DNA of 51,777 nt from Escherichia phage FritzSarasin, in the sequence record MZ501069. One strand, written 5' to 3'. Below, in pieces: positions 20,777 through 48,911 of the stretch (its first letter is position 1; every line of letters starts with the position of its first letter). The position numbers were made by a program, and so were the translations under genes. The notes under the pieces were generated by a model. It searched no databases, had not been told where the DNA came from, and saw only the letters and a list, made by a program, of their open reading frames with translations.

Positions 20777-21051
20777 TAATTACACCTCAAATCAATAAAT
20801 TTACTTTCATTTTGCCAGCGGTTGATAAATTTAACTTCTTTATTGTCAACGCTCAACCTGTATTGCTTTTGGCTGAATCTGTTTTCGCGGACTGCATTAA
20901 TTTTGACCTCATGGAATCCGTTAACAGGGAATGTTTTAACGTTAAATTTTGCCGTGCAATCGATCTCTTTGAAGCCGCCAGTAGGCGACGCTGCGCATCC
21001 GGTCAGAGCGGCTACGGTGGCGATAACTGCGATTAATTTTTTCATCTTCAA
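20776..21051 (-). CDS. small lipoprotein, Cor-like superinfection-exclusion candidate
   Basis: 91 aa; signal peptide with lipobox LTGC; Cor-like by size, lipoprotein character and proximity to tail genes; homology not verified. Confidence 0.5.
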   Translation of the reverse strand: MKMKKLIAVIATVAALTGCAASPTGGFKEIDCTAKFNVKTFPVNGFHEVKINAVRENRFSQKQYRLSVDNKEVKFINRWQNESKFIDLRCN

Positions 21052-21100
21052 TACTCCTTAGTTGTCGTTGCCTGTAACTATACACGATCCGACAAGCGGC

Positions 21101-21120
21101 GTTTAGCAAAAAGTGCTACT
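21101..21120 (-). promoter_or_regulatory. conserved promoter-module motif, variant copy (leftward)
   Basis: Minus-strand reading AGTAGCACTTTTTGCTAAAC, about 21 nt, then TATAGT; lipoprotein ATG about 70 nt downstream. Confidence 0.5.
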
Positions 21121-21488
21121 TGTTATTTTTTGTTTTTCGGTGTTATCGAATTTAAGACGGCGTAAATTTAGCTCAAATTTTAGCCAACATGAGAGCGATA
21201 AACAATCAATAAAATAGATATATACATATAAAATCAATAGTTTATTTATTTATGTATGTATATTTGTTTTTTCTTGTTATCTGTGTTTCTTGTGGTTTTG
21301 GTTGTTTGTGGTGATTTTTCTTTCTGAGTATCTGTATGTGCCATCATTCATGTGTATGTATATAATCCGGCGTATCTGAGAGAACAAGGGAACAAGAAAA
21401 ATAACACATATTAATCATTGACTTACATTTCAAATTTGTTTTCTTGCAATCTAAGAACGTTTAGAAAACAGAAAAAACAAAACAACTA

Positions 21489-21516
21489 TTGACTAAATCA
21501 ACCAAATGGCTACAAT
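21489..21516 (+). promoter_or_regulatory. sigma70-type promoter (TTGACT-N16-TACAAT)
   Basis: Near-consensus -35 and -10 about 30 nt upstream of exonuclease ATG. Confidence 0.55.
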
Positions 21517-21546
21517 GCACACACAAAGCAACAAGGAGCATCAAAG

Positions 21547-28288: not shown

Positions 28289-28299
28289 CTAGTCACCTC

Positions 28300-28319
28300 A
28301 TAGCATTTTTTGTTAAAAC
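28300..28319 (+). promoter_or_regulatory. conserved promoter-module motif copy (rightward)
   Basis: ATAGCATTTTTTGTTAAAAC, 22-nt spacer, TATTAT; helicase ATG 77 nt downstream. Confidence 0.55.
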
Positions 28320-28375
28320 AGTTTATTGTAATGAGTCTATTATATACTCCAAATGGCATTTTTTAAAGGTTTAAG

Positions 28376-35239: not shown

Positions 35240-35635
35240 TCATGTGATATTGAATTTACGGCGCAGTGCTTCAAGATCTTGTCTATTAGCTTTTGCCTGG
35301 AACAATTCATCATCGCCCATCTCCCCTATTCTAGCCATATCCCTGATCCAGTCGTTGCGCATACCATCCAGGCTATACAATTCGAATCCGAAAGGCCGCT
35401 TTGACGATCCTTTGGACCAGTATTTACCGCAGACCCCATCTATATAGCCAGCCGTCATCATTCTTGCGCAAAATTCCTTAGATGCAAGGCTGGCGAACAT
35501 TCGCGGCGTAAGTCCGGCGGCCCGTGCGAGCCGCTCACATTCTCTATGATGATAGATAAATTTGGCTATGTGCTGCCTGTTAAACCAGTCGTATGACTCA
35601 CACCATTTATACAGATCAAGCAAAAACATAATCAT
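35240..35635 (-). CDS. hypothetical protein, coupled to upstream P-loop ATPase
   Basis: About 131 aa; start overlaps stop of the ATPase gene (ATGA); no recognisable motif. Confidence 0.5.
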   Translation of the reverse strand: MIMFLLDLYKWCESYDWFNRQHIAKFIYHHRECERLARAAGLTPRMFASLASKEFCARMMTAGYIDGVCGKYWSKGSSKRPFGFELYSLDGMRNDWIRDMARIGEMGDDELFQAKANRQDLEALRRKFNIT

Positions 35636-37212
35636 CCCAGCAGTATTGGATTGACAAAAATAACACCATTAATCACACAAACATAATTTCTTTCTTCCAG
35701 CATTGGCAGCAAGTGCCCTTCTATCCTCTTCATTACGCCAGCTTGACCAACGAAAGGTTTTACCTTTCTCGCTGATTCGTACAGGGCGCGAATATTCAGA
35801 ATCCCTTTATTAGCCTTGCCGTGTCTAGTGATCAATTCAATCAATTTGCCCATTTCAGCATCATCACCAGCATAACCAGAAGCATTGGCGGCGCTAATGT
35901 ATGTTTTGCTCAATTCCTGAAACATGATCAGCGCCTCTTGCATTGTTTCCACGTCGATCTCTTTCGACTTCTGCGGGTATCCAGCAGGATTAAACCAGTT
36001 GCGGATAACATGCAGGACGGAAGCAAGCCTGATCACCTGTTTATCCATTTTACCCAGCGCACCGCGTAACATTGTATGAGAATACTTTCCGCCGTCTGCA
36101 AGATGCGGTTCCATATCCTGGCGAGCAATGTTGAGCACTCGCATAGCTGAACGGCTTATTTTCAGCGATATATTTGATTCGCTCATGATGTTATGCACCA
36201 ATTGATAATATTGGGCCTTCAATTCAGGATCCACCGCCTCATAGGTAGAATCACCATTTTCATCAATGAATGAGCGACGGCCTAAGAATGATTCCTCACG
36301 GACCAACAAAAAGCGCTCACTCACACCGATACCGCGCGATCCAGCGTCCATGATTCCGCTTATCGTTTCATCCTGGGCTATAACGCTCATACATCCAAGT
36401 GCGCGAAAACTCATGTTATTGTCAGCATTAGCACGGGCAATTGATACGTGACCATTATCCCACGCCTTAAGCACTAGCTCGCTGTTAGTCTTCCTTTCGC
36501 TATTGGCATAGGTCAAGCCTAACAGGCTGTTAATACTTGTTGCTTCGTCAGATATTACGGCAAAGTTACCTTGCTTGTTGTTGATTTTCGCCAAGCCTTC
36601 TGGAGTGGTATCTGAAACAGGGAAAGTTATATCACACATCTTTTCCAGCTTCTCCTCCAGATCCTCTTTTTCCTGGTATAGAGATTCCATATCAGCGCCT
36701 GATCTTTCGCTTTTCATCTCCTTTGCAAGACCTGCCAACTTTGCCTGTATTTTCTTTCTTTCCTTGCGGCGTTGCTCGTTGATCTTCTCAACTTCCGCAA
36801 TCATCGGAGCAATAGCCATACTGTTGATCGCAGATTTACCAGTTGACGGCGGCTGGCTTGTAACTACGTAAAGCGCAGTCGGCTGATCGGTTCCGTGATA
36901 GTCAACTGTAAAGCGCCCAAGCATAGCGGCAGAAATGCAGCCGATAAAGTGCATGTAAGCCGATGATTCAGGGAATTGAACTGATCGCGCAATGCTGCGT
37001 GATAACTTGCCGACAACATCAATATCATTACCAAGAGAAATTACGGGGTAGCGATCGTGACCGCTATTTACATCCTTTACGTCGCCCCAAAAGCTGGACG
37101 ACTGGCGATAGCCGTTAGCCTGAATTGATACGCGAACTGGCGAAAGGTTCTGGCTTTCAGCCATAGCGATTATTTGCTGTGGAGTTAATTTGTTCGTTTC
37201 TAATGAAAACAT
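35632..37212 (-). CDS. P-loop NTPase of unknown function (DUF3987-like, unverified)
   Basis: 526 aa; Walker A-like PPSTGKS and Walker B-like AVISDEA; charged coiled-coil segment; long C-terminal domain with no recognisable motif. Confidence 0.6.
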   Translation of the reverse strand: MFSLETNKLTPQQIIAMAESQNLSPVRVSIQANGYRQSSSFWGDVKDVNSGHDRYPVISLGNDIDVVGKLSRSIARSVQFPESSAYMHFIGCISAAMLGRFTVDYHGTDQPTALYVVTSQPPSTGKSAINSMAIAPMIAEVEKINEQRRKERKKIQAKLAGLAKEMKSERSGADMESLYQEKEDLEEKLEKMCDITFPVSDTTPEGLAKINNKQGNFAVISDEATSINSLLGLTYANSERKTNSELVLKAWDNGHVSIARANADNNMSFRALGCMSVIAQDETISGIMDAGSRGIGVSERFLLVREESFLGRRSFIDENGDSTYEAVDPELKAQYYQLVHNIMSESNISLKISRSAMRVLNIARQDMEPHLADGGKYSHTMLRGALGKMDKQVIRLASVLHVIRNWFNPAGYPQKSKEIDVETMQEALIMFQELSKTYISAANASGYAGDDAEMGKLIELITRHGKANKGILNIRALYESARKVKPFVGQAGVMKRIEGHLLPMLEERNYVCVINGVIFVNPILLG

Positions 37213-41586: not shown

Positions 41587-41837
41587 TTCTTCTCCTGCAA
41601 TAAGCAAACATCATTGATAAAATCAGCACGGCCCTTAATGTTGCTGATGTGGAACGTCTTTTCAGCGTACAGGCCATCACCTTCAATCACGATCATTACG
41701 CGAGTCGGTTTATTCACGGGCGCACACGAAAAGAGTGGTCGCGCCGGAAGAAATTTAGTAGCCACATCCAGGTTAGCCCTGGCGGCCCTGCAAAACGCCT
41801 CCGCCAGATCCAAATCATTTTCGGTAATCACCGCCAT
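41571..41837 (-). CDS. hypothetical protein
   Basis: 88 aa; start overlaps upstream stop. Confidence 0.45.
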   Translation of the reverse strand: MAVITENDLDLAEAFCRAARANLDVATKFLPARPLFSCAPVNKPTRVMIVIEGDGLYAEKTFHISNIKGRADFINDVCLLQEKKKCWM

Positions 41838-42109
41838 TACTTCTTGATCTCCTCACTGATAAATTTCAGCACCTGACGCAAGAAAACCTCGTTGTTGATG
41901 GTCGCTGGCAATTCTTCTTTCACTTCTTGCGGCAGATAGATATTGCCGTGCCAGGTCAAGCAATCGTAGTTGATACGATAAGAGCAAAGCCACTCGCAAT
42001 CGTTATCTGCTTCCCAAATGCAGAGTTGCAGAACATCGCCAAAATCTTCAACAGTCAGATCCAGACCGTGACGCTTAGCGAAGTTGAAAGTGGTTTTGCT
42101 GATGTTCAT
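41837..42109 (-). CDS. hypothetical protein
   Basis: 90 aa; first gene of leftward unit from the 42168 module. Confidence 0.55.
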   Translation of the reverse strand: MNISKTTFNFAKRHGLDLTVEDFGDVLQLCIWEADNDCEWLCSYRINYDCLTWHGNIYLPQEVKEELPATINNEVFLRQVLKFISEEIKK

Positions 42110-42167
42110 TGCTATCTCCTGAGCGGTTCGTTTCGATGTGTGTAATGTACCCGATCAGACGGCCTGA

Positions 42168-42188
42168 GTTTTAACAAAAAGTGCTATT
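42168..42188 (-). promoter_or_regulatory. conserved promoter-module motif copy (leftward)
   Basis: Minus-strand reading AATAGCACTTTTTGTTAAAAC, about 22 nt, TACATT; ATG about 80 nt downstream. Confidence 0.55.
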
Positions 42189-42742
42189 TGACGGTTAGCG
42201 CCAGGATTGTGATCGAAATAATCAAAAGTAATCATTCGTAATCAAATCAAGTCAAAATGATGATTGCCTTTGCAAATTTGATGAGAAAAGTAATCACGTT
42301 TAATCATTGGTTGCAGGGGAGATAGTGAAACCTTCCCCTCTTGCCTCACTTTTTTGCCTGGCTGTCAGTGGTTGTTGTCTTTTGTTCACCCCTGTTACCG
42401 ATTTCAGGCGGCGTGTTTCCGCGCGGTTTTCCGGTGTAGCGAAAACGGAAAAAACAAAGAAAATCCTTTATAATACATTGAAAATAAAGATTATTTATTT
42501 ATATATATCTATAATGTTTTCTTTTTGTTCTCACTGTTACAGTGCTTTTTGTTGGTTATGGTGTGGTTGTGTGTGGGCATATATGGATAGTTGCGCGCGC
42601 GGCGGATTGCATATGTATATATACTTTTTCCGGCGGATTGCGTTAACAGCGTGAACAGAAAAATAACAGCCGTGAAATCAATAACTTGCGCATGATTTTG
42701 TAGTTTTTTGATATTGGTAACGTTTTGAATACAACAAAAACA

Positions 42743-42770
42743 TTGACACGCACCAAATAGCTTTTATAAT
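42743..42770 (+). promoter_or_regulatory. consensus sigma70 promoter (TTGACA-N16-TATAAT)
   Basis: Perfect -35 and -10 hexamers about 30 nt upstream of ATG 42802. Confidence 0.65.
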
Positions 42771-42801
42771 GCGCCAACAGTCAACAACTGGAGGAAAGGA
42801 A

Positions 42802-43266
42802 ATGGAACAGAAGACCACTAAGGACTATTGCGATTGGCTTCGCGAGCTTGGTCGCCGCCTGGCTAGTGGCGATATTGAAGAGTATAAAATGTCACTAATT
42901 GACCTGGCCGGAATGTTAAGCGGTGACGACTGCTACAAGATCACGCGCAGTTCATCCTACAGCCGGACCATTATCAACCGCGTTCCAGAAGTAAGGGCCG
43001 CAGGTCGGGTAAGTATCAAGGTCGAGGAAACGGAAGATGATAAATTTTACGTTTTCCGCATGGTGCGCGAATCGAAAAGGAAAATCATCACACCCGAAGA
43101 ATTGCCAGCCATAAAGGCAAGGGCGATCAAAAAGTTTGCCGATCGCTTACTGGCAGCAATCCCGAACATCGTGGACCTGGAGGGTGATAAACTGGCTGGA
43201 GCTTGTGAGGGCGTAAGCCGCTACCAGGATATGATTCGCGAAATCATCAAAGAGGAGGAGCAATAA
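42802..43266 (+). CDS. hypothetical early protein
   Basis: 154 aa from ATG 42802 (RBS GGAGGAAAGG); track start 42769 lies inside the -10. Confidence 0.55.
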   Translation: MEQKTTKDYCDWLRELGRRLASGDIEEYKMSLIDLAGMLSGDDCYKITRSSSYSRTIINRVPEVRAAGRVSIKVEETEDDKFYVFRMVRESKRKIITPEELPAIKARAIKKFADRLLAAIPNIVDLEGDKLAGACEGVSRYQDMIREIIKEEEQ

Positions 43267-48431: not shown

Positions 48432-48812
48432 ATGGTTAACATCCGAAAAATCCGCGTCGGCACTAAATTCTTAGTTACTTATGCAATTCCCGATAGCGGA
48501 ATGAAGAAGGGCCAGATTGTTAAGGTTGATAGCAAAAGGTTCGGAATCCCTGGTATCAATGGCTATCTAATCAATAAAGATCTTGGATTCGACGGCTTCG
48601 CTATCCGTGCGCTTGAGGGTATTGTTGCCACTCTTAAGCGAATCACTAATCATCGCGGTTGTCCAATCAAGACGATTAAAGCGCCAATAAATTACGGCAA
48701 ACTGGATAATCGTCGAATCCGCCGCCTGGCGCGTAACGCGTTAAAATTCCGTGGCGTAGGCGATGATTTCTACTATGGATACAAGAGGATTGCGCGCAAT
48801 GCTGGGAAATAA
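48432..48812 (+). CDS. hypothetical protein
   Basis: 126 aa; basic. Confidence 0.55.
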   Translation: MVNIRKIRVGTKFLVTYAIPDSGMKKGQIVKVDSKRFGIPGINGYLINKDLGFDGFAIRALEGIVATLKRITNHRGCPIKTIKAPINYGKLDNRRIRRLARNALKFRGVGDDFYYGYKRIARNAGK

Positions 48813-48911
48813 CAATAACGCAACGAATCCTAAGCCACCTTTTGATTTTCATTCCGCAATGATTGCGGTATTATCAATGCTACTTTTTCTTTATAGCATG
48901 AGGGCGCTACT

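What the first reader, a model, noticed from the sequence alone, without database searches (positions are those of the whole stretch)
42110..42801. AT-rich divergent regulatory hub II resembling hub I
A second roughly 690-bp non-coding region between the leftward and rightward early arrays. It shares sequence character with hub I: ATTATTTATTTATATATATCTATAAT, GT-rich GGTGTGGTTGTGTGTGGG, GAAAAAACAAAG, TAATCATTG. It ends with a perfect TTGACA-N16-TATAAT promoter (42743-42770). It also holds repeated TAATCA units (AAATAATCAAAAGTAATCATTCGTAATCAAATCAAG) that look like iterons. Two similar hubs about 21 kb apart suggest two origin or regulatory centres.
Basis: seen in the sequence. Interest (0 to 1): 0.6.

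Follow-up and report, generated by a model that had tools for sequence, protein, structure and literature searches.

The report
Duplicated origin-like early-promoter module, T1-like phage
The 690-bp gap is genuine non-coding control DNA of a T1-like coliphage. It holds a leftward phage-type promoter, the stretch where relatives' DNA-packaging ends map, and a 430-bp module found twice per genome across the family that ends in a strong host-type early promoter and looks like the still-unmapped replication origin.

Summary
Every quoted motif sits at the stated coordinates, and hub II really is homologous to hub I rather than merely AT-rich (local alignment z = 24.7). A profile built only from hub I of 42 other phages finds hub II at E = 2.8e-35.

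The window is a Warwickvirus-like Drexlerviridae genome. Hub II has three parts:
- **42110-42195:** a leftward promoter of the known 21-nt "DR" class.
- **42196-42372:** a hub II-specific segment holding the phased TAATCA repeats. It is positionally equivalent to where the T1 and TLS records place pac, the genome left end.
- **42373-42801:** a 430-bp module paralogous to hub I and present twice in all Drexlerviridae examined.

The module contains five copies of a ~26-bp T-rich repeat in a → ← [AT core] → ← ← layout. Its AT core is one of the two least stable duplex segments of the genome, as also in T1 and TLS. It also carries an IHF consensus site, a UP-like tract and the TTGACA-N16-TATAAT promoter.

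My best reading (about 0.45) is an early promoter coupled to an iteron/AT-rich replication origin. A purely transcriptional role (about 0.35) is not excluded. The TAATCA units are more likely packaging sites than replication iterons. The ORF annotated here in relatives is spurious.

The parts
42110..42195 (-). Leftward DR-type promoter unit for gene 41837..42109. It comprises the DR box at 42169-42189 (rc AAATAGCACTTTTTGTTAAAA), a -10-like TACATT (rc) at 42144-42149, the conserved 5'UTR CATCGAAACGAA (rc) at 42127-42138, and an SD (rc) at 42116-42121.
   Evidence: This is one of 19 units in the window sharing the same layout: DR, then N17-18, a TATAAT-like hexamer, CATCGAAACGA, and GAGGA-ATG. 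It matches the TLS 21-nt repeat aaATAGCACnnnTTGnTAAAA, which lies about 76 nt upstream of start codons.
42196..42372 (.). Hub II-specific segment, absent from hub I, and a candidate pac (packaging-initiation) region. It holds five phased TAATCA repeats, AATGATGATTG at 42256-42266, TTTGATGAG at 42277-42285, and the G-rich hairpin GGGGAGATAGTGAAACCTTCCCC at 42316-42338.
   Evidence: It appears as a gap in the hub I/hub II alignment. All genera have a segment of about 200-260 bp here; its sequence varies, but most contain TGATT/AATCA repeats and several have a GGGGA..TAGTGAAAC-like block. T1 record position 1, the start of the 2.8-kb terminal repeat, and TLS position 1, the restriction-mapped pac, both fall in the equivalent segment about 11 nt after ATGATGA. 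The SU57 paper places pac in this untranslated region.
42219..42306 (+). TAATCA x5 (42219, 42229, 42239, 42291, 42301), in roughly 10.4-bp helical phase, flanking the ATGATGATTG...TTTGATGAG centre.
   Evidence: 5 copies in 88 bp against about 0.06 expected. The repeats are conserved in close relatives L051 and L079.
42373..42398 (+). Repeat unit c1 (TGTTGTCTTTTGTTCACCCCTGTTAC). It contains an exact copy of the P4 type I iteron word TGTTCACC at 42383-42390.
   Evidence: the repeat finder family D2 shows 73% identity to c3.
42407..42415 (+). GGCGGCGTG box, the first copy of the conserved CCGGCGTAAAT-type box.
   Evidence: It is a conserved block in the 68-module alignment. CCGGCG is 58-fold enriched in hub I modules.
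42441..42464 (-). Repeat unit c2, inverted and weaker: GAAAACGGAAAAAACAAAGAAAAT.
   Evidence: Inverted repeat I7 spans 42448-42463 and 42517-42532 at 81% complementarity. It is a conserved A-rich block in all groups.
42467..42515 (.). AT core (about 90% A+T), a candidate DNA-unwinding element.
   Evidence: 42466-42526 and 21205-21265 are the two least stable 60-bp duplex segments of the window (z = 4.9, next 3.4). The same holds for the two hub cores in T1 and TLS (z = 5.1-5.8, next no more than 3.75). The TATA..A positions are nearly invariant in 68 modules.
42515..42540 (+). Repeat unit c3 (TGTTTTCTTTTTGTTCTCACTGTTAC).
   Evidence: D2 (direct with c1), I1 (80% complementary to c4), I2 (71% to c5).
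42554..42577 (+). GT-rich tract GGTTATGGTGTGGTTGTGTGTGGG; function unknown.
   Evidence: It aligns with GTGGTTTTGGTTGTTTGTGGTG in hub I at 21292-21313.
42630..42638 (+). CCGGCGGAT box, the second (direct) copy of the CCGGCGTAAAT-type box.
   Evidence: The hub I equivalents are at 21156-21167 and 21367-21372.
42642..42669 (-). Repeat unit c4, inverted: GTTAACAGCGTGAACAGAAAAATAACAG.
   Evidence: inverted repeat I1. Its layout resembles the P4 ori GGTGAACAG triplet. Its submotifs covary with c1 and c3 across lineages.
42676..42688 (+). IHF consensus site AATCAATAACTTG (WATCAANNNNTTR).
   Evidence: The window has only 6 strict matches, 2 of them in the hubs. The site recurs at the same module position in many lineages.
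42717..42744 (-). Repeat unit c5, which doubles as an A-rich UP-element-like tract abutting the -35.
   Evidence: inverted repeat I2 (71% with c3). It is the conserved block aaaCa.aaa.AAca in all groups.
42743..42770 (+). Sigma70 early promoter TTGACA-N16-TATAAT. The inferred transcription start is about 42777.
   Evidence: At the same position, 43 of 44 hub I modules match at least 10 of 12 hexamer positions, and 21 of 24 hub II modules match at least 9 of 12. It corresponds to TLS P01.
42790..42804 (+). SD GGAGGAAAGG and the ATG at 42802 of the first rightward early gene (DUF7174).
21121..21546 (+). Hub I, the paralogous copy of the module, upstream of the recE-like exonuclease/erf/ssb operon. 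Units: c1 21129-21147, c2 21189-21212, c3 21263-21281, c4 21380-21410, c5 21465-21482. IHF-type sites at 21232 and 21413. Promoter TTGACT-N16-TACAAT at 21489-21516.

Best explanation
Hub II is the composite cis-acting control region of a T1-like (Drexlerviridae, Warwickvirus-like) phage. It has three juxtaposed elements.

(1) A leftward DR-class promoter, probably dependent on a phage factor, drives the leftward array.

(2) A 177-bp segment unique to hub II carries the phased TAATCA/TGATT repeats. It most likely holds the pac site, where small terminase binds and the first headful cut is made.

(3) A 430-bp module is an ancient paralogue of hub I. Its right end is an immediate-early sigma70 promoter with a UP-like tract and an upstream IHF site. 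Its left two-thirds look like an iteron-type replication origin: ~26-bp T-rich repeat units, each made of three TGTxxxC submotifs about one helical turn apart, are arranged → ← around the most easily melted AT tract of the genome and again → ← downstream.

Inferred mechanism, not shown. A phage-encoded sequence-specific protein occupies the inverted units. Candidates are the MCM-like DUF3987 helicase with its C-terminal winged helix, or the conserved HTH protein encoded between primase and helicase. IHF bends the DNA. Transcription leaving the hub on one or both sides adds negative supercoiling. The AT core then melts, and the helicase and the P4-alpha-like primase are loaded. The genome would thus have two such promoter-coupled origins about 21 kb apart.

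Sub-probabilities:
- The module's right end is a functional early promoter: about 0.9.
- The upstream part is an origin or a cis-acting replication element: about 0.45.
- The TAATCA segment serves packaging rather than replication: about 0.5.
For: Shown here:
- The two hubs are homologous over about 430 bp (z = 24.7; E = 2.8e-35 from an independent hub I profile).
- The two-copy arrangement is family-wide. Hub II equivalents were found in 24 further distinct loci fetched through the helicase, in TLS (E = 7e-21) and in T1 (E = 1e-4).
- The non-coding module is about as conserved as the neighbouring coding DNA. Hub I is 66-75% identical between genera whose exonuclease is 61-81% identical.
- The repeat units and their orientation were confirmed by an independent tool in both hubs.
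- Submotif words differ by lineage: TGTTCAC, TGTTACCG, TGTTATC, TGTAAC plus GTCTA, CGTTTCC. They match among units of the same module better than across lineages (permutation p = 0.0002, 26 lineages).
- The AT cores of both hubs are the two least stable duplex segments in this genome, in T1 and in TLS.
- IHF consensus sites recur at two fixed module positions.
- The sigma70 promoter is conserved and equals TLS P01/P51. TLS has only three predicted sigma70 promoters, and the third (P57) lacks the module.
- The phage encodes a primase homologous to the P4 alpha N-terminus (E = 5e-17). It also encodes a DUF3987 helicase whose high-confidence model (pLDDT 89) matches MCM2-7 subunits (Foldseek E = 2e-5, probability 1.0) and ends in a winged-helix-type fold.
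- No origin has been found for T1-like phages in the literature I could search.
- For pac, the T1 and TLS record starts and the SU57 statement place it in the equivalent segment. TerS is only 47-53% identical among the three phages, which is compatible with a fast-evolving recognition segment.
Against: - There are no replication data of any kind. Nothing here distinguishes an origin from a protein-bound transcriptional control region.
- No binding protein has been identified.
- There are no DnaA boxes and no GATC cluster.
- Resemblance to the P4 origin is at motif level only. The best nhmmer hit of the module on P4 does fall on the crr iterons, but at E = 0.11, and the window has no homologue of the P4 alpha origin-binding domain.
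- A repeat-unit model built from other lineages is low in information. It finds the hub units only at E of about 0.5-1.
- In T1 the words in hub I (TGTAAC) and hub II (GTGTTAATC) differ. That fits intramodule concerted evolution at least as well as one shared binding protein.
- The dyad symmetry around the AT core gives no better hairpin than shuffled sequence.
- AA/TT helical periodicity is not a shared hallmark of the two hubs.
- The pac positions in T1 and TLS are approximate. They come from restriction mapping plus similarity to the P22 pac. No termini data exist for this phage.
Confidence: 0.45

Rival explanations
1. The role is transcriptional only. The whole 430-bp module is an extended immediate-early promoter region. 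The repeat units are operators or enhancer sites for a phage regulator, for example the conserved Cro-like HTH protein, which switches the two early operons off or on. IHF and the AT-rich tract would act as an upstream supercoiling-sensitive activating element. There would be no role in replication.
For: - Each module ends in a conserved sigma70 promoter directly upstream of an early operon.
- Unit c5 coincides with the UP-element position.
- IHF sites upstream of promoters are common (my own knowledge: lambda pL, ilvPG).
- A conserved HTH 'transcriptional regulator' is encoded in the genome.
- The T-rich core CTTTTTGTT of unit c3 also sits inside the DR promoter boxes: 13 of its 19 copies in the window are in DR boxes and 2 are in hub II.
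Against: - Conservation extends to about 400 bp upstream of the -35, far more than known sigma70 promoters need.
- The third sigma70 promoter (P57 in TLS; 28339-28366 on the - strand here) has no module.
- Inverted site arrays flanking the genome's least stable AT tract, with no promoter inside it, are typical of origins.
Confidence: 0.35
2. The TAATCA units are replication iterons, and hub II's left part is the origin.
For: There are five copies in helical phase, highly non-random. They are conserved in close relatives.
Against: - The segment is absent from hub I, so it does not explain the resemblance between the two hubs.
- Other genera carry different short repeats there.
- The equivalent segment holds the T1 and TLS genome starts, that is pac.
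- It has no adjacent AT-rich unwinding tract of its own; the AT core lies about 160 bp beyond the last repeat, on the far side of unit c1.
Confidence: 0.08
3. The module is a fossil mobile element, MITE-like, with inverted ends c1/c4, or a recombination hotspot. Its second copy arose by transposition and has no present function beyond the promoter.
For: Units c1 and c4 form an imperfect inverted repeat of about 26 bp flanking about 240 bp. There are two copies per genome.
Against: - There are exactly two copies, at orthologous positions, in the three subfamily-level lineages examined.
- Within a genome the copies are about 56% identical, so the duplication is ancient and both copies are under purifying selection.
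- No copies occur elsewhere in the phage genome or in plasmids.
- Conservation also covers the interior blocks.
Confidence: 0.04
4. The region is protein-coding (ORF 42307/42325-42654, annotated 'hypothetical protein' in Poky and others), or it encodes a structured RNA.
For: A 115-codon ORF exists and is annotated in several GenBank relatives.
Against: - The ORF is broken or shifted even in close relatives, and no frame is conserved across hub II orthologues.
- Its translation is low-complexity and has no Pfam hit.
- T1 and TLS annotate nothing there.
- There are no Rfam hits at gathering level or at E no greater than 1, apart from a chance snoRNA match.
- There are no tRNA genes, and folding is no better than for shuffled sequence.
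Confidence: 0.03

Closest known systems
Phage TLS predicted promoters P01 and P51 and the 21-nt intergenic direct repeats (PMC11447400)
   Same: Hub II's TTGACA-N16-TATAAT promoter is the positional equivalent of TLS P01 (523-549). Hub I's promoter equals P51 (29110-29137). The left end of hub II carries one copy of the aaATAGCACnnnTTGnTAAAA repeat, oriented with transcription and about 80 nt from the start codon.
   Different: The TLS paper treats these as isolated promoters and repeats. It does not describe the roughly 430-bp paralogous module upstream of P01/P51, it reports finding no origin-type repeats, and it lists the function of the 21-nt repeat as an open question.
pac / genome left end of phages T1 and TLS
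   Same: The location is the same: the large divergent non-coding region about 9 kb upstream of terS. T1 position 1, the start of the annotated 2.8-kb repeat, and TLS position 1 both lie between the leftward DR box and the module, inside a cluster of TGATTG repeats and just after ATGATGA. The window has AATGATGATTG at 42256-42266, flanked by TAATCA (the reverse complement of TGATTA) repeats.
   Different: The segment's sequence is poorly conserved between genera. The repeat orientation is inverted in the window relative to TLS. The published positions are approximate, and nothing has been mapped for this phage or its genus.
Satellite phage P4 ori and crr (type I iterons TGTTCACC bound by the alpha primase-helicase)
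   Same: - There are two separated cis elements per genome.
- GTGAACA-type words sit 9-12 bp apart in both orientations; the window has one exact TGTTCACC (42383) and GTTAACAGCGTGAACAG (42642-42658).
- A-rich AAACAAACAG-type flanks are shared.
- The phage primase is homologous to the alpha N-terminus.
- The best hit of the module profile on P4 falls on the crr iterons.
   Different: That hit is not significant (E = 0.11). The window has no homologue of alpha's C-terminal origin-binding domain. The helicase is DUF3987/MCM-like, not the D5_N/Pox_D5 type of alpha. In the T1 lineage the word is TGTAAC, not TGTTCAC.
Herpes simplex virus oriS/oriL (architecture recalled from my own knowledge, not tested here)
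   Same: An AT-rich centre is flanked by inverted initiator-binding boxes. It lies between divergently transcribed early genes. It is present in more than one copy per genome, one of them next to the ssDNA-binding-protein gene.
   Different: There is no sequence or protein relationship. This is an analogy of layout only. The HSV palindrome is near-perfect, whereas the dyad symmetry here is loose.
Iteron-type origins of lambda and of plasmids (pSC101, R6K, P1); SPP1 oriL/oriR as a two-origin phage (my own knowledge)
   Same: Multiple phased binding repeats lie next to an AT-rich unwinding tract with IHF sites. SPP1 also has two related origin copies far apart.
   Different: The units here are longer (about 26 bp, tripartite) and occur in both orientations. 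There are no DnaA boxes. No initiator of the O/Rep/G38P type is recognisable.
Phage P1 pac site (hexamer repeats flanking the cut region, with IHF; my own knowledge)
   Same: Short hexamer repeats are split into two groups (3 + 2 TAATCA) on either side of a central stretch that corresponds to the T1/TLS ends.
   Different: The hexamer differs: there is no GATC inside it, and the segment holds a single GATC. Cleavage has not been mapped.

Membership tests
Sigma70 (host RNA polymerase) promoter | -35 and -10 hexamers close to TTGACA/TATAAT, 16-18 bp apart | tested here: met
   A 12/12 match with a 16-bp spacer at 42743-42770; it is unique in the window.
Sigma70 (host RNA polymerase) promoter | Conservation of the hexamers at the same position in orthologues | tested here: met
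   43 of 44 hub I modules match at least 10/12 and 21 of 24 hub II modules match at least 9/12. The promoter equals TLS P01/P51.
Sigma70 (host RNA polymerase) promoter | Mapped transcription start and early timing | not testable with these tools
   I found no transcriptome for Drexlerviridae.
Iteron-type replication origin | Several copies of a repeated binding sequence, phased | tested here: met
   There are five ~26-bp units in each hub. GAACAA/TTGTTC is 11-fold and GTGAACA 28-fold over expectation; in the T1 lineage TGTAAC is 24-fold over. The units covary within modules (p = 0.0002). Caveat: a cross-lineage unit model is weak.
Iteron-type replication origin | Adjacent AT-rich DNA-unwinding element | tested here: met
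   The hub AT cores are the two least stable 60-bp segments in the window, in T1 and in TLS.
Iteron-type replication origin | Host-factor sites (IHF, DnaA) | tested here: inconclusive
   An IHF consensus is present and positionally conserved, but there are no DnaA boxes and no GATC cluster.
Iteron-type replication origin | A cognate initiator binds the repeats, and replication starts there | not testable with these tools
   There are only candidates: the MCM-like helicase with a winged-helix end and the HTH protein.
P4-type ori/crr | Multiple copies of the octamer TGTTCACC | tested here: inconclusive
   There is one exact copy (42383) plus degenerate GTGAACAG/GTTAACAG. TGTTCAC occurs 7 times in the window, 2 of them in hub II and none in hub I.
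P4-type ori/crr | An alpha protein with a C-terminal origin-binding domain | tested here: not met
   Only the primase part of alpha has a homologue. phmmer with the alpha C-terminus against all window ORFs finds nothing, and hhalign against the helicase aligns only the Walker A motif.
P4-type ori/crr | Sequence homology of the element itself | tested here: not met
   nhmmer of the module profile against P4 gives a best E of 0.11.
T1-like pac region | Lies in the divergent non-coding region where the T1 and TLS genome ends map | tested here: met
   Synteny and record starts agree, as do the literature statements.
T1-like pac region | A shared recognition or cut motif | tested here: inconclusive
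   ATGATGA followed by TGATTG-type repeats is present in the window, TLS and T1, but the segment is otherwise variable.
T1-like pac region | Virion DNA ends or TerS binding at this site in this phage | not testable with these tools
   No read data or biochemistry are available.
Drexlerviridae 21-nt DR element (TLS-type) | Consensus aaATAGCACnnnTTGnTAAAA, oriented with transcription, about 76 nt from the start codon | tested here: met
   The box is at 42169-42189 on the - strand, 80 nt from the start codon at 42109. Eighteen further units have the same layout.
Protein-coding gene (ORF 42307-42654) | Reading frame conserved in relatives, with a recognisable family | tested here: not met
Known RNA family (Rfam) | A match to a covariance model | tested here: not met

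The most novel reading that the evidence does not exclude
The two modules are the long-sought replication origins of T1-like phages. In this reading they form a pair of promoter-coupled origins, each built of inverted ~26-bp tripartite units around a melting core. An MCM-like AAA+ helicase with a winged-helix tail assembles head-to-head on these units, as eukaryotic and viral initiator-helicases do. The T-rich core CTTTTTGTT, shared with the 19 DR promoter boxes, would tie replication and the middle/late transcription switch to one phage factor.
Probability: 0.25. Interest if true: 0.75.

Novelty: new member of a known kind. Interest (0 to 1): 0.5.

Why it matters
T1-like phages are classic models, notorious laboratory and fermenter contaminants, generalized transducers and therapy candidates. 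Even so, the accessible literature says their replication origin has not been found (TLS 2024, SU57 2020). That literature lists the function of their intergenic repeats as an open question and locates pac only roughly.

This analysis turns one vague AT-rich gap into a precise, testable map. It gives two candidate origins with defined repeat units and melting cores. It also gives a candidate pac segment with phased repeats, the family's main host-type early promoters, and the full anatomy of the DR promoter class.

If confirmed, these elements would allow T1-based replicons and packaging vectors and rational genome engineering. They would also provide a bacterial-virus example of MCM-like helicase loading at a defined origin.

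Tried and rejected
- **Chance or AT-richness as the source of the hub I/hub II similarity.** Rejected (z = 24.7; independent profile E = 2.8e-35).
- **A third copy in the genome.** None.
- **Coding ORF.** Rejected.
- **RNA gene or structured RNA.** No Rfam match and no tRNA. The hub II-specific segment folds no better than shuffles.
- **Cruciform at the AT core.** The loose dyad symmetry folds no better than shuffles in the window, TLS or T1.
- **Intrinsic curvature as the shared property.** AA/TT 10-11-bp periodicity is high only at 42271-42430 (z = 5.2) and is moderate in hub I (z = 2.8).
- **Homology to the P4 origin.** Motif-level only. No alpha origin-binding domain. The DUF3987 helicase is not alpha-like by BLAST or hhalign. 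PDB sequence searches were uninformative.
- **DnaA boxes or GATC clusters.** Absent.
- **Linking the lineage-specific words to the recognition helix of the HTH protein.** Three sequences only, with no clear pattern.
- **Concerted evolution between the two hubs.** Not seen. Hub I copies are closer to each other across genomes (mean 58%) than to hub II of the same genome (about 56%); the hub I-hub II mean is 47%.
- **The module outside Drexlerviridae.** There are no plasmid hits. The 78-kb 'Enterobacter phage N5822' hit is itself a Drexlerviridae record.
- **Cross-lineage repeat-unit model.** Too low in information to be independent evidence.
- **Literature.** Searches for transcriptomes, origin mapping or pac mapping in Drexlerviridae gave only the TLS and SU57 papers. 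Searches were uninformative. The T1 genome paper is not held.
Full report
**Identity of the window.** The window is a complete, circularly permuted genome of a T1-like siphovirus. It is 97-99% identical over the region to Escherichia phages JLBYU26, vB_EcoS-95, SECphi27, Poky and others (Drexlerviridae, Tempevirinae, Warwickvirus). It starts at the small-terminase gene.

**The observation.** The non-coding gap runs from 42110 to 42801, between a leftward gene (41837..42109) and a rightward DUF7174 gene (ATG 42802). Its GC is 0.389 against 0.448 for the genome. TAATCA occurs five times on one strand within 88 bp, all close to a 10.4-bp phase, where about 0.06 copies are expected.

"Hub I" is the gap at 21047-21546, between a leftward lipoprotein gene (Cor-like by synteny with T1) and the recE-like exonuclease gene. 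The two hubs align collinearly over about 430 bp. The local score is 88 against 22.2 +/- 2.7 for dinucleotide shuffles (z = 24.7), and BLAST finds no third copy. The resemblance is therefore real homology, not composition.

**Family-wide conservation.** I fetched the region upstream of the exonuclease gene from 43 IMG/VR loci covering T1 itself, TLS and many genera. The roughly 430 bp upstream of the gene align throughout. A profile built from these hub I sequences alone, with the window's hub II excluded, finds the following:
- hub II of the window at 42376-42794 (E = 2.8e-35, profile positions 7-418 of 428);
- hub II equivalents in 24 further distinct loci fetched through the DUF3987 helicase gene;
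- TLS hub II (E = 7e-21);
- T1 hub II (E = 1e-4).

Complete T1, TLS and window genomes each contain exactly two copies. Hub I copies are on average 58% identical across genomes and hub II copies 51%. Hub I against hub II averages 47%, and about 56% within the window and within TLS. The duplication is therefore ancient and both copies are under selection. There is no sign of recent gene conversion between them.

**Part 1: the left end (42110-42195).** The genome carries 19 units of a highly stereotyped element. Its layout is AAATAGCACTTTTTGTTAAAAC, then 17-18 nt (often an inverted repeat), then a TATAAT-like hexamer, about 7 nt, CATCGAAACGA, GAGGA and ATG. All but four units sit directly upstream of, and oriented with, a gene. 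This is the 21-nt direct repeat that Kropinski, Misra and colleagues described in TLS, T1 and Rtp; they list its function as an open question. Its full layout identifies it as a promoter class whose upstream box replaces a -35 element. This is an inference, by analogy with activator-dependent phage middle promoters. Hub II's copy (box at 42169-42189, - strand) drives the leftward array.

**Part 2: the hub II-specific segment (42196-42372).** This is the large gap in the hub I/hub II alignment, and it contains the TAATCA units. All genera have a segment of 200-260 bp at this place. Its sequence is variable, and each lineage has its own short repeats. Recurrent features are TGATT(G)/AATCA pentamers, an ATGATGA motif and a G-rich GGGGA..TAGTGAAAC block.

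The RefSeq record of T1 starts inside its equivalent segment. Position 1 is annotated as the start of a 2,800-bp repeat region, which is the terminal redundancy that begins at pac. The TLS record also starts there. Its authors mapped pac by restriction analysis of the submolar pac fragment and fixed the exact base by similarity to the P22 pac. In both records base 1 lies about 11 nt after an ATGATGA motif, within a cluster of TGATTG repeats. The SU57 paper states that pac lies in this untranslated region in T1 and other T1-like phages.

In the window the corresponding centre is AATGATGATTG...TTTGATGAG (42256-42285). Three TAATCA repeats lie on its left and two on its right. TerS is only 47-53% identical among the window, TLS and T1, which is compatible with a fast-evolving recognition segment. 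I therefore read the TAATCA units as probable terminase (pac) recognition repeats rather than replication iterons (probability about 0.5). Nothing has been mapped for this genus.

**Part 3: the shared module (42373-42801).** Its right end is the sigma70 promoter. At that position 43 of 44 hub I modules match at least 10 of 12 hexamer positions, and 21 of 24 hub II modules match at least 9 of 12. In TLS the only three predicted sigma70 promoters are P01 (hub II), P51 (hub I) and P57, which serves the regulator/primase operon.

Upstream of the -35 lie, in order:
- an A-rich UP-like tract;
- an IHF consensus site (42676-42688). The window has six strict matches in all, two of them in the hubs, and IHF-type sites recur at two fixed module positions in many lineages;
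- a repeated architecture that an independent repeat finder recovers in both hubs.

The repeated architecture is a ~26-bp T-rich unit, TGTTnTCTTTT(T)GTTCnC(n2-3)CTGTTAC. It is made of three TGTxxxC submotifs about one helical turn apart, and it occurs as follows:

| Unit | Strand | Coordinates |
|---|---|---|
| c1 | + | 42373-42398 |
| c2 (weaker) | - | 42441-42464 |
| c3 | + | 42515-42540 |
| c4 | - | 42642-42669 |
| c5 (overlaps the UP position) | - | 42717-42744 |

Two direct copies of a CCGGCGTAAAT-type box (42407, 42630) and a GT-rich tract (42554-42577) complete the conserved blocks.

Between c2 and c3 lies the AT core (42467-42515). With its hub I counterpart, it is the least stable 60-bp duplex segment of the whole genome (z = 4.9 against 3.4 for the next). 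The same is true of both hub cores in T1 and in TLS (z = 5.1-5.8 against no more than 3.75).

**Lineage-specific words.** The submotif differs between lineages while its position and orientation are kept. The words seen are TGTTCAC/GAACA in most Tempevirinae, TGTAAC and GTCTA in the T1 lineage, and TGTTACCG, TGTTATC or CGTTTCC in others. Over 26 lineage representatives, units c1, c3 and c4 of the same module resemble each other more than units paired across lineages (permutation p = 0.0002 for each of the three comparisons). This points to a sequence-specific, co-evolving ligand, or to concerted evolution among the units. The second reading cannot be dismissed, because T1's two hubs use different words.

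**Relation to P4.** The P4 record confirms that its type I iteron is TGTTCACC and that its ori carries GGTGAACAG three times at 10-11-bp spacing. Hub II has one exact TGTTCACC, and also GTTAACAGCGTGAACAG. The best hits of the module profile on P4 fall on the crr and ori iterons, but at E = 0.11 or worse.

The window's primase is homologous to the N-terminal primase of P4 alpha (E = 5e-17). No ORF resembles alpha's origin-binding C-terminus, and the helicase is of a different family. The module is therefore not a member of the P4 ori family, though it may work in a similar way.

**Candidate trans-acting factors.** The DUF3987 helicase gave a confident AlphaFold model (pLDDT 89.3, pTM 0.87). Its best PDB matches are MCM2-7 subunits (E = 2e-5, probability 1.0). 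Its last ~80 residues have helix-strand-helix-helix-strand-strand order, which is winged-helix topology. A 157-aa protein with a Cro/YdaS-type HTH is encoded between primase and helicase and is 50-58% identical to its counterparts in TLS and T1. Which protein, if either, binds the units cannot be decided here.

**Interpretation.** The promoter function of the right end is well supported (about 0.9). For the upstream 350 bp, two readings remain.

The origin reading (about 0.45) rests on four points:
- inverted site arrays flank the genome's most meltable tract;
- IHF sites sit at fixed positions;
- conservation extends far beyond what a promoter needs;
- the third sigma70 promoter has no such module, and no origin is known for these phages.

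In this reading, transcription leaving the hub would help to open the core. That step is an inference from the twin-supercoiled-domain model and from known transcriptional activation of origins.

The transcription-only reading (about 0.35) rests on the strict coupling to early promoters, on c5 doubling as the UP tract, and on the T-rich core CTTTTTGTT being shared with the DR promoter boxes.

Evidence that weakens the origin reading:
- there are no DnaA boxes or GATC clusters;
- the dyad symmetry gives no stable cruciform;
- the cross-lineage unit model is weak;
- no binding protein has been identified.

**Other readings excluded.** The ORF annotated in Poky and other records is not conserved. 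No RNA family, tRNA or unusual fold is present. No copies of the module exist in plasmids.

**Novelty.** The DR repeat, the P01/P51 promoters and the approximate pac location are already in the literature. I found no description of the 430-bp module as a conserved paralogous pair, of its repeat-unit architecture or of its melting core. It is best filed as a new member of a known kind: a promoter-coupled, iteron/AT-rich origin-like control region. The function still needs experimental proof.

Noticed in passing
window, 19 sites: + strand 2093, 26739, 28300, 30789, 31860, 43523, 43986, 45204, 46472, 46843, 48358, 49652; - strand 42187, 40884, 40157, 37958, 35122, 10490, 6736: The known 21-nt DR repeat is only the upstream box of a longer stereotyped unit: box, N17-18 (often a GC-rich inverted repeat), a TATAAT-like hexamer, the CATCGAAACGA leader, then SD and ATG. 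This marks it as a phage-specific promoter class without a normal -35. Copies 6736 and 10490 lie on the - strand inside the rightward late-gene region, and 26739 on the + strand lies at the end of a leftward gene. None of these three is followed by the leader or a start codon.
   Followed up: partly
window 35632-37212 (- strand): The DUF3987 'helicase' of T1-like phages gives a confident model (pLDDT 89). Its closest solved structures are MCM2-7 subunits (Foldseek E = 2e-5), and it has a C-terminal winged-helix-type domain. It therefore looks like an MCM-like AAA+ replicative helicase.
   Followed up: partly
window 42307-42654 (+ strand): This ORF is annotated as a 'hypothetical protein' in several GenBank relatives (for example Poky gp62). 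It lies entirely in the conserved non-coding module and is not conserved as a reading frame, so it is probably a false gene call.
   Followed up: yes
window 28289-28375: A third divergent control region lies between the HTH-regulator/primase operon and the SNF2-type helicase gene. It has a leftward sigma70-like promoter (TTAAAA-N16-TATAAT, 28366-28339, equal to TLS P57), a rightward DR box (28300) and an AT-rich stretch (fifth least stable segment). It carries no copy of the hub module.
   Followed up: partly
GenBank records matched: Between 15 and 18 records named 'Campylobacter phage' (host C. jejuni) and one named 'Streptococcus phage MBBL140' carry these Drexlerviridae sequences at 72-90% identity. 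Their host labels look doubtful. Enterobacter phage N5822 is a 78-kb 'circular' Drexlerviridae record, probably a misassembly.
   Followed up: no
starts of GenBank records: Many Drexlerviridae records are linearized inside hub II (XY3, Jahat_MG145, PHB17, Pocis76, LL5, vB_GS156) or at hub I (BEK26), at differing bases. This could reflect the T1 numbering convention, PhageTerm calls, or assembly breaks at the AT-rich repeats.
   Followed up: no
L049 (T1) 48675-48836 + 1-541: T1's hub II has two leftward DR boxes. One is next to gene ST1 and the other directly abuts the module, with the pac-containing segment between them. This looks as if the pac segment had been inserted into an ancestral 'DR box + module' hub like hub I.
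   Followed up: no
L045 (IMGVR_UViG_2974632794, Shigella phage 2019SD1, UNVERIFIED_ASMBLY): The hub I module is hit twice, about 400 bp apart, and the exonuclease match is 100 nt too long. This is probably an assembly artefact or a local duplication.
   Followed up: no
window 42521, 42545 and the DR boxes: The 9-mer CTTTTTGTT occurs 19 times in the window. Thirteen copies are inside DR boxes and two are in hub II (unit c3 and just after the small hairpin at 42532-42544). This hints that the DR boxes and the hub repeat units share a recognition core.
   Followed up: partly
window 42271-42430: Strong 10-11-bp AA/TT periodicity (fourth highest in the genome, z = 5.2) spans the junction between the pac-candidate segment and unit c1, which suggests intrinsically bent DNA there. 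Hub I has no equivalent peak.
   Followed up: no
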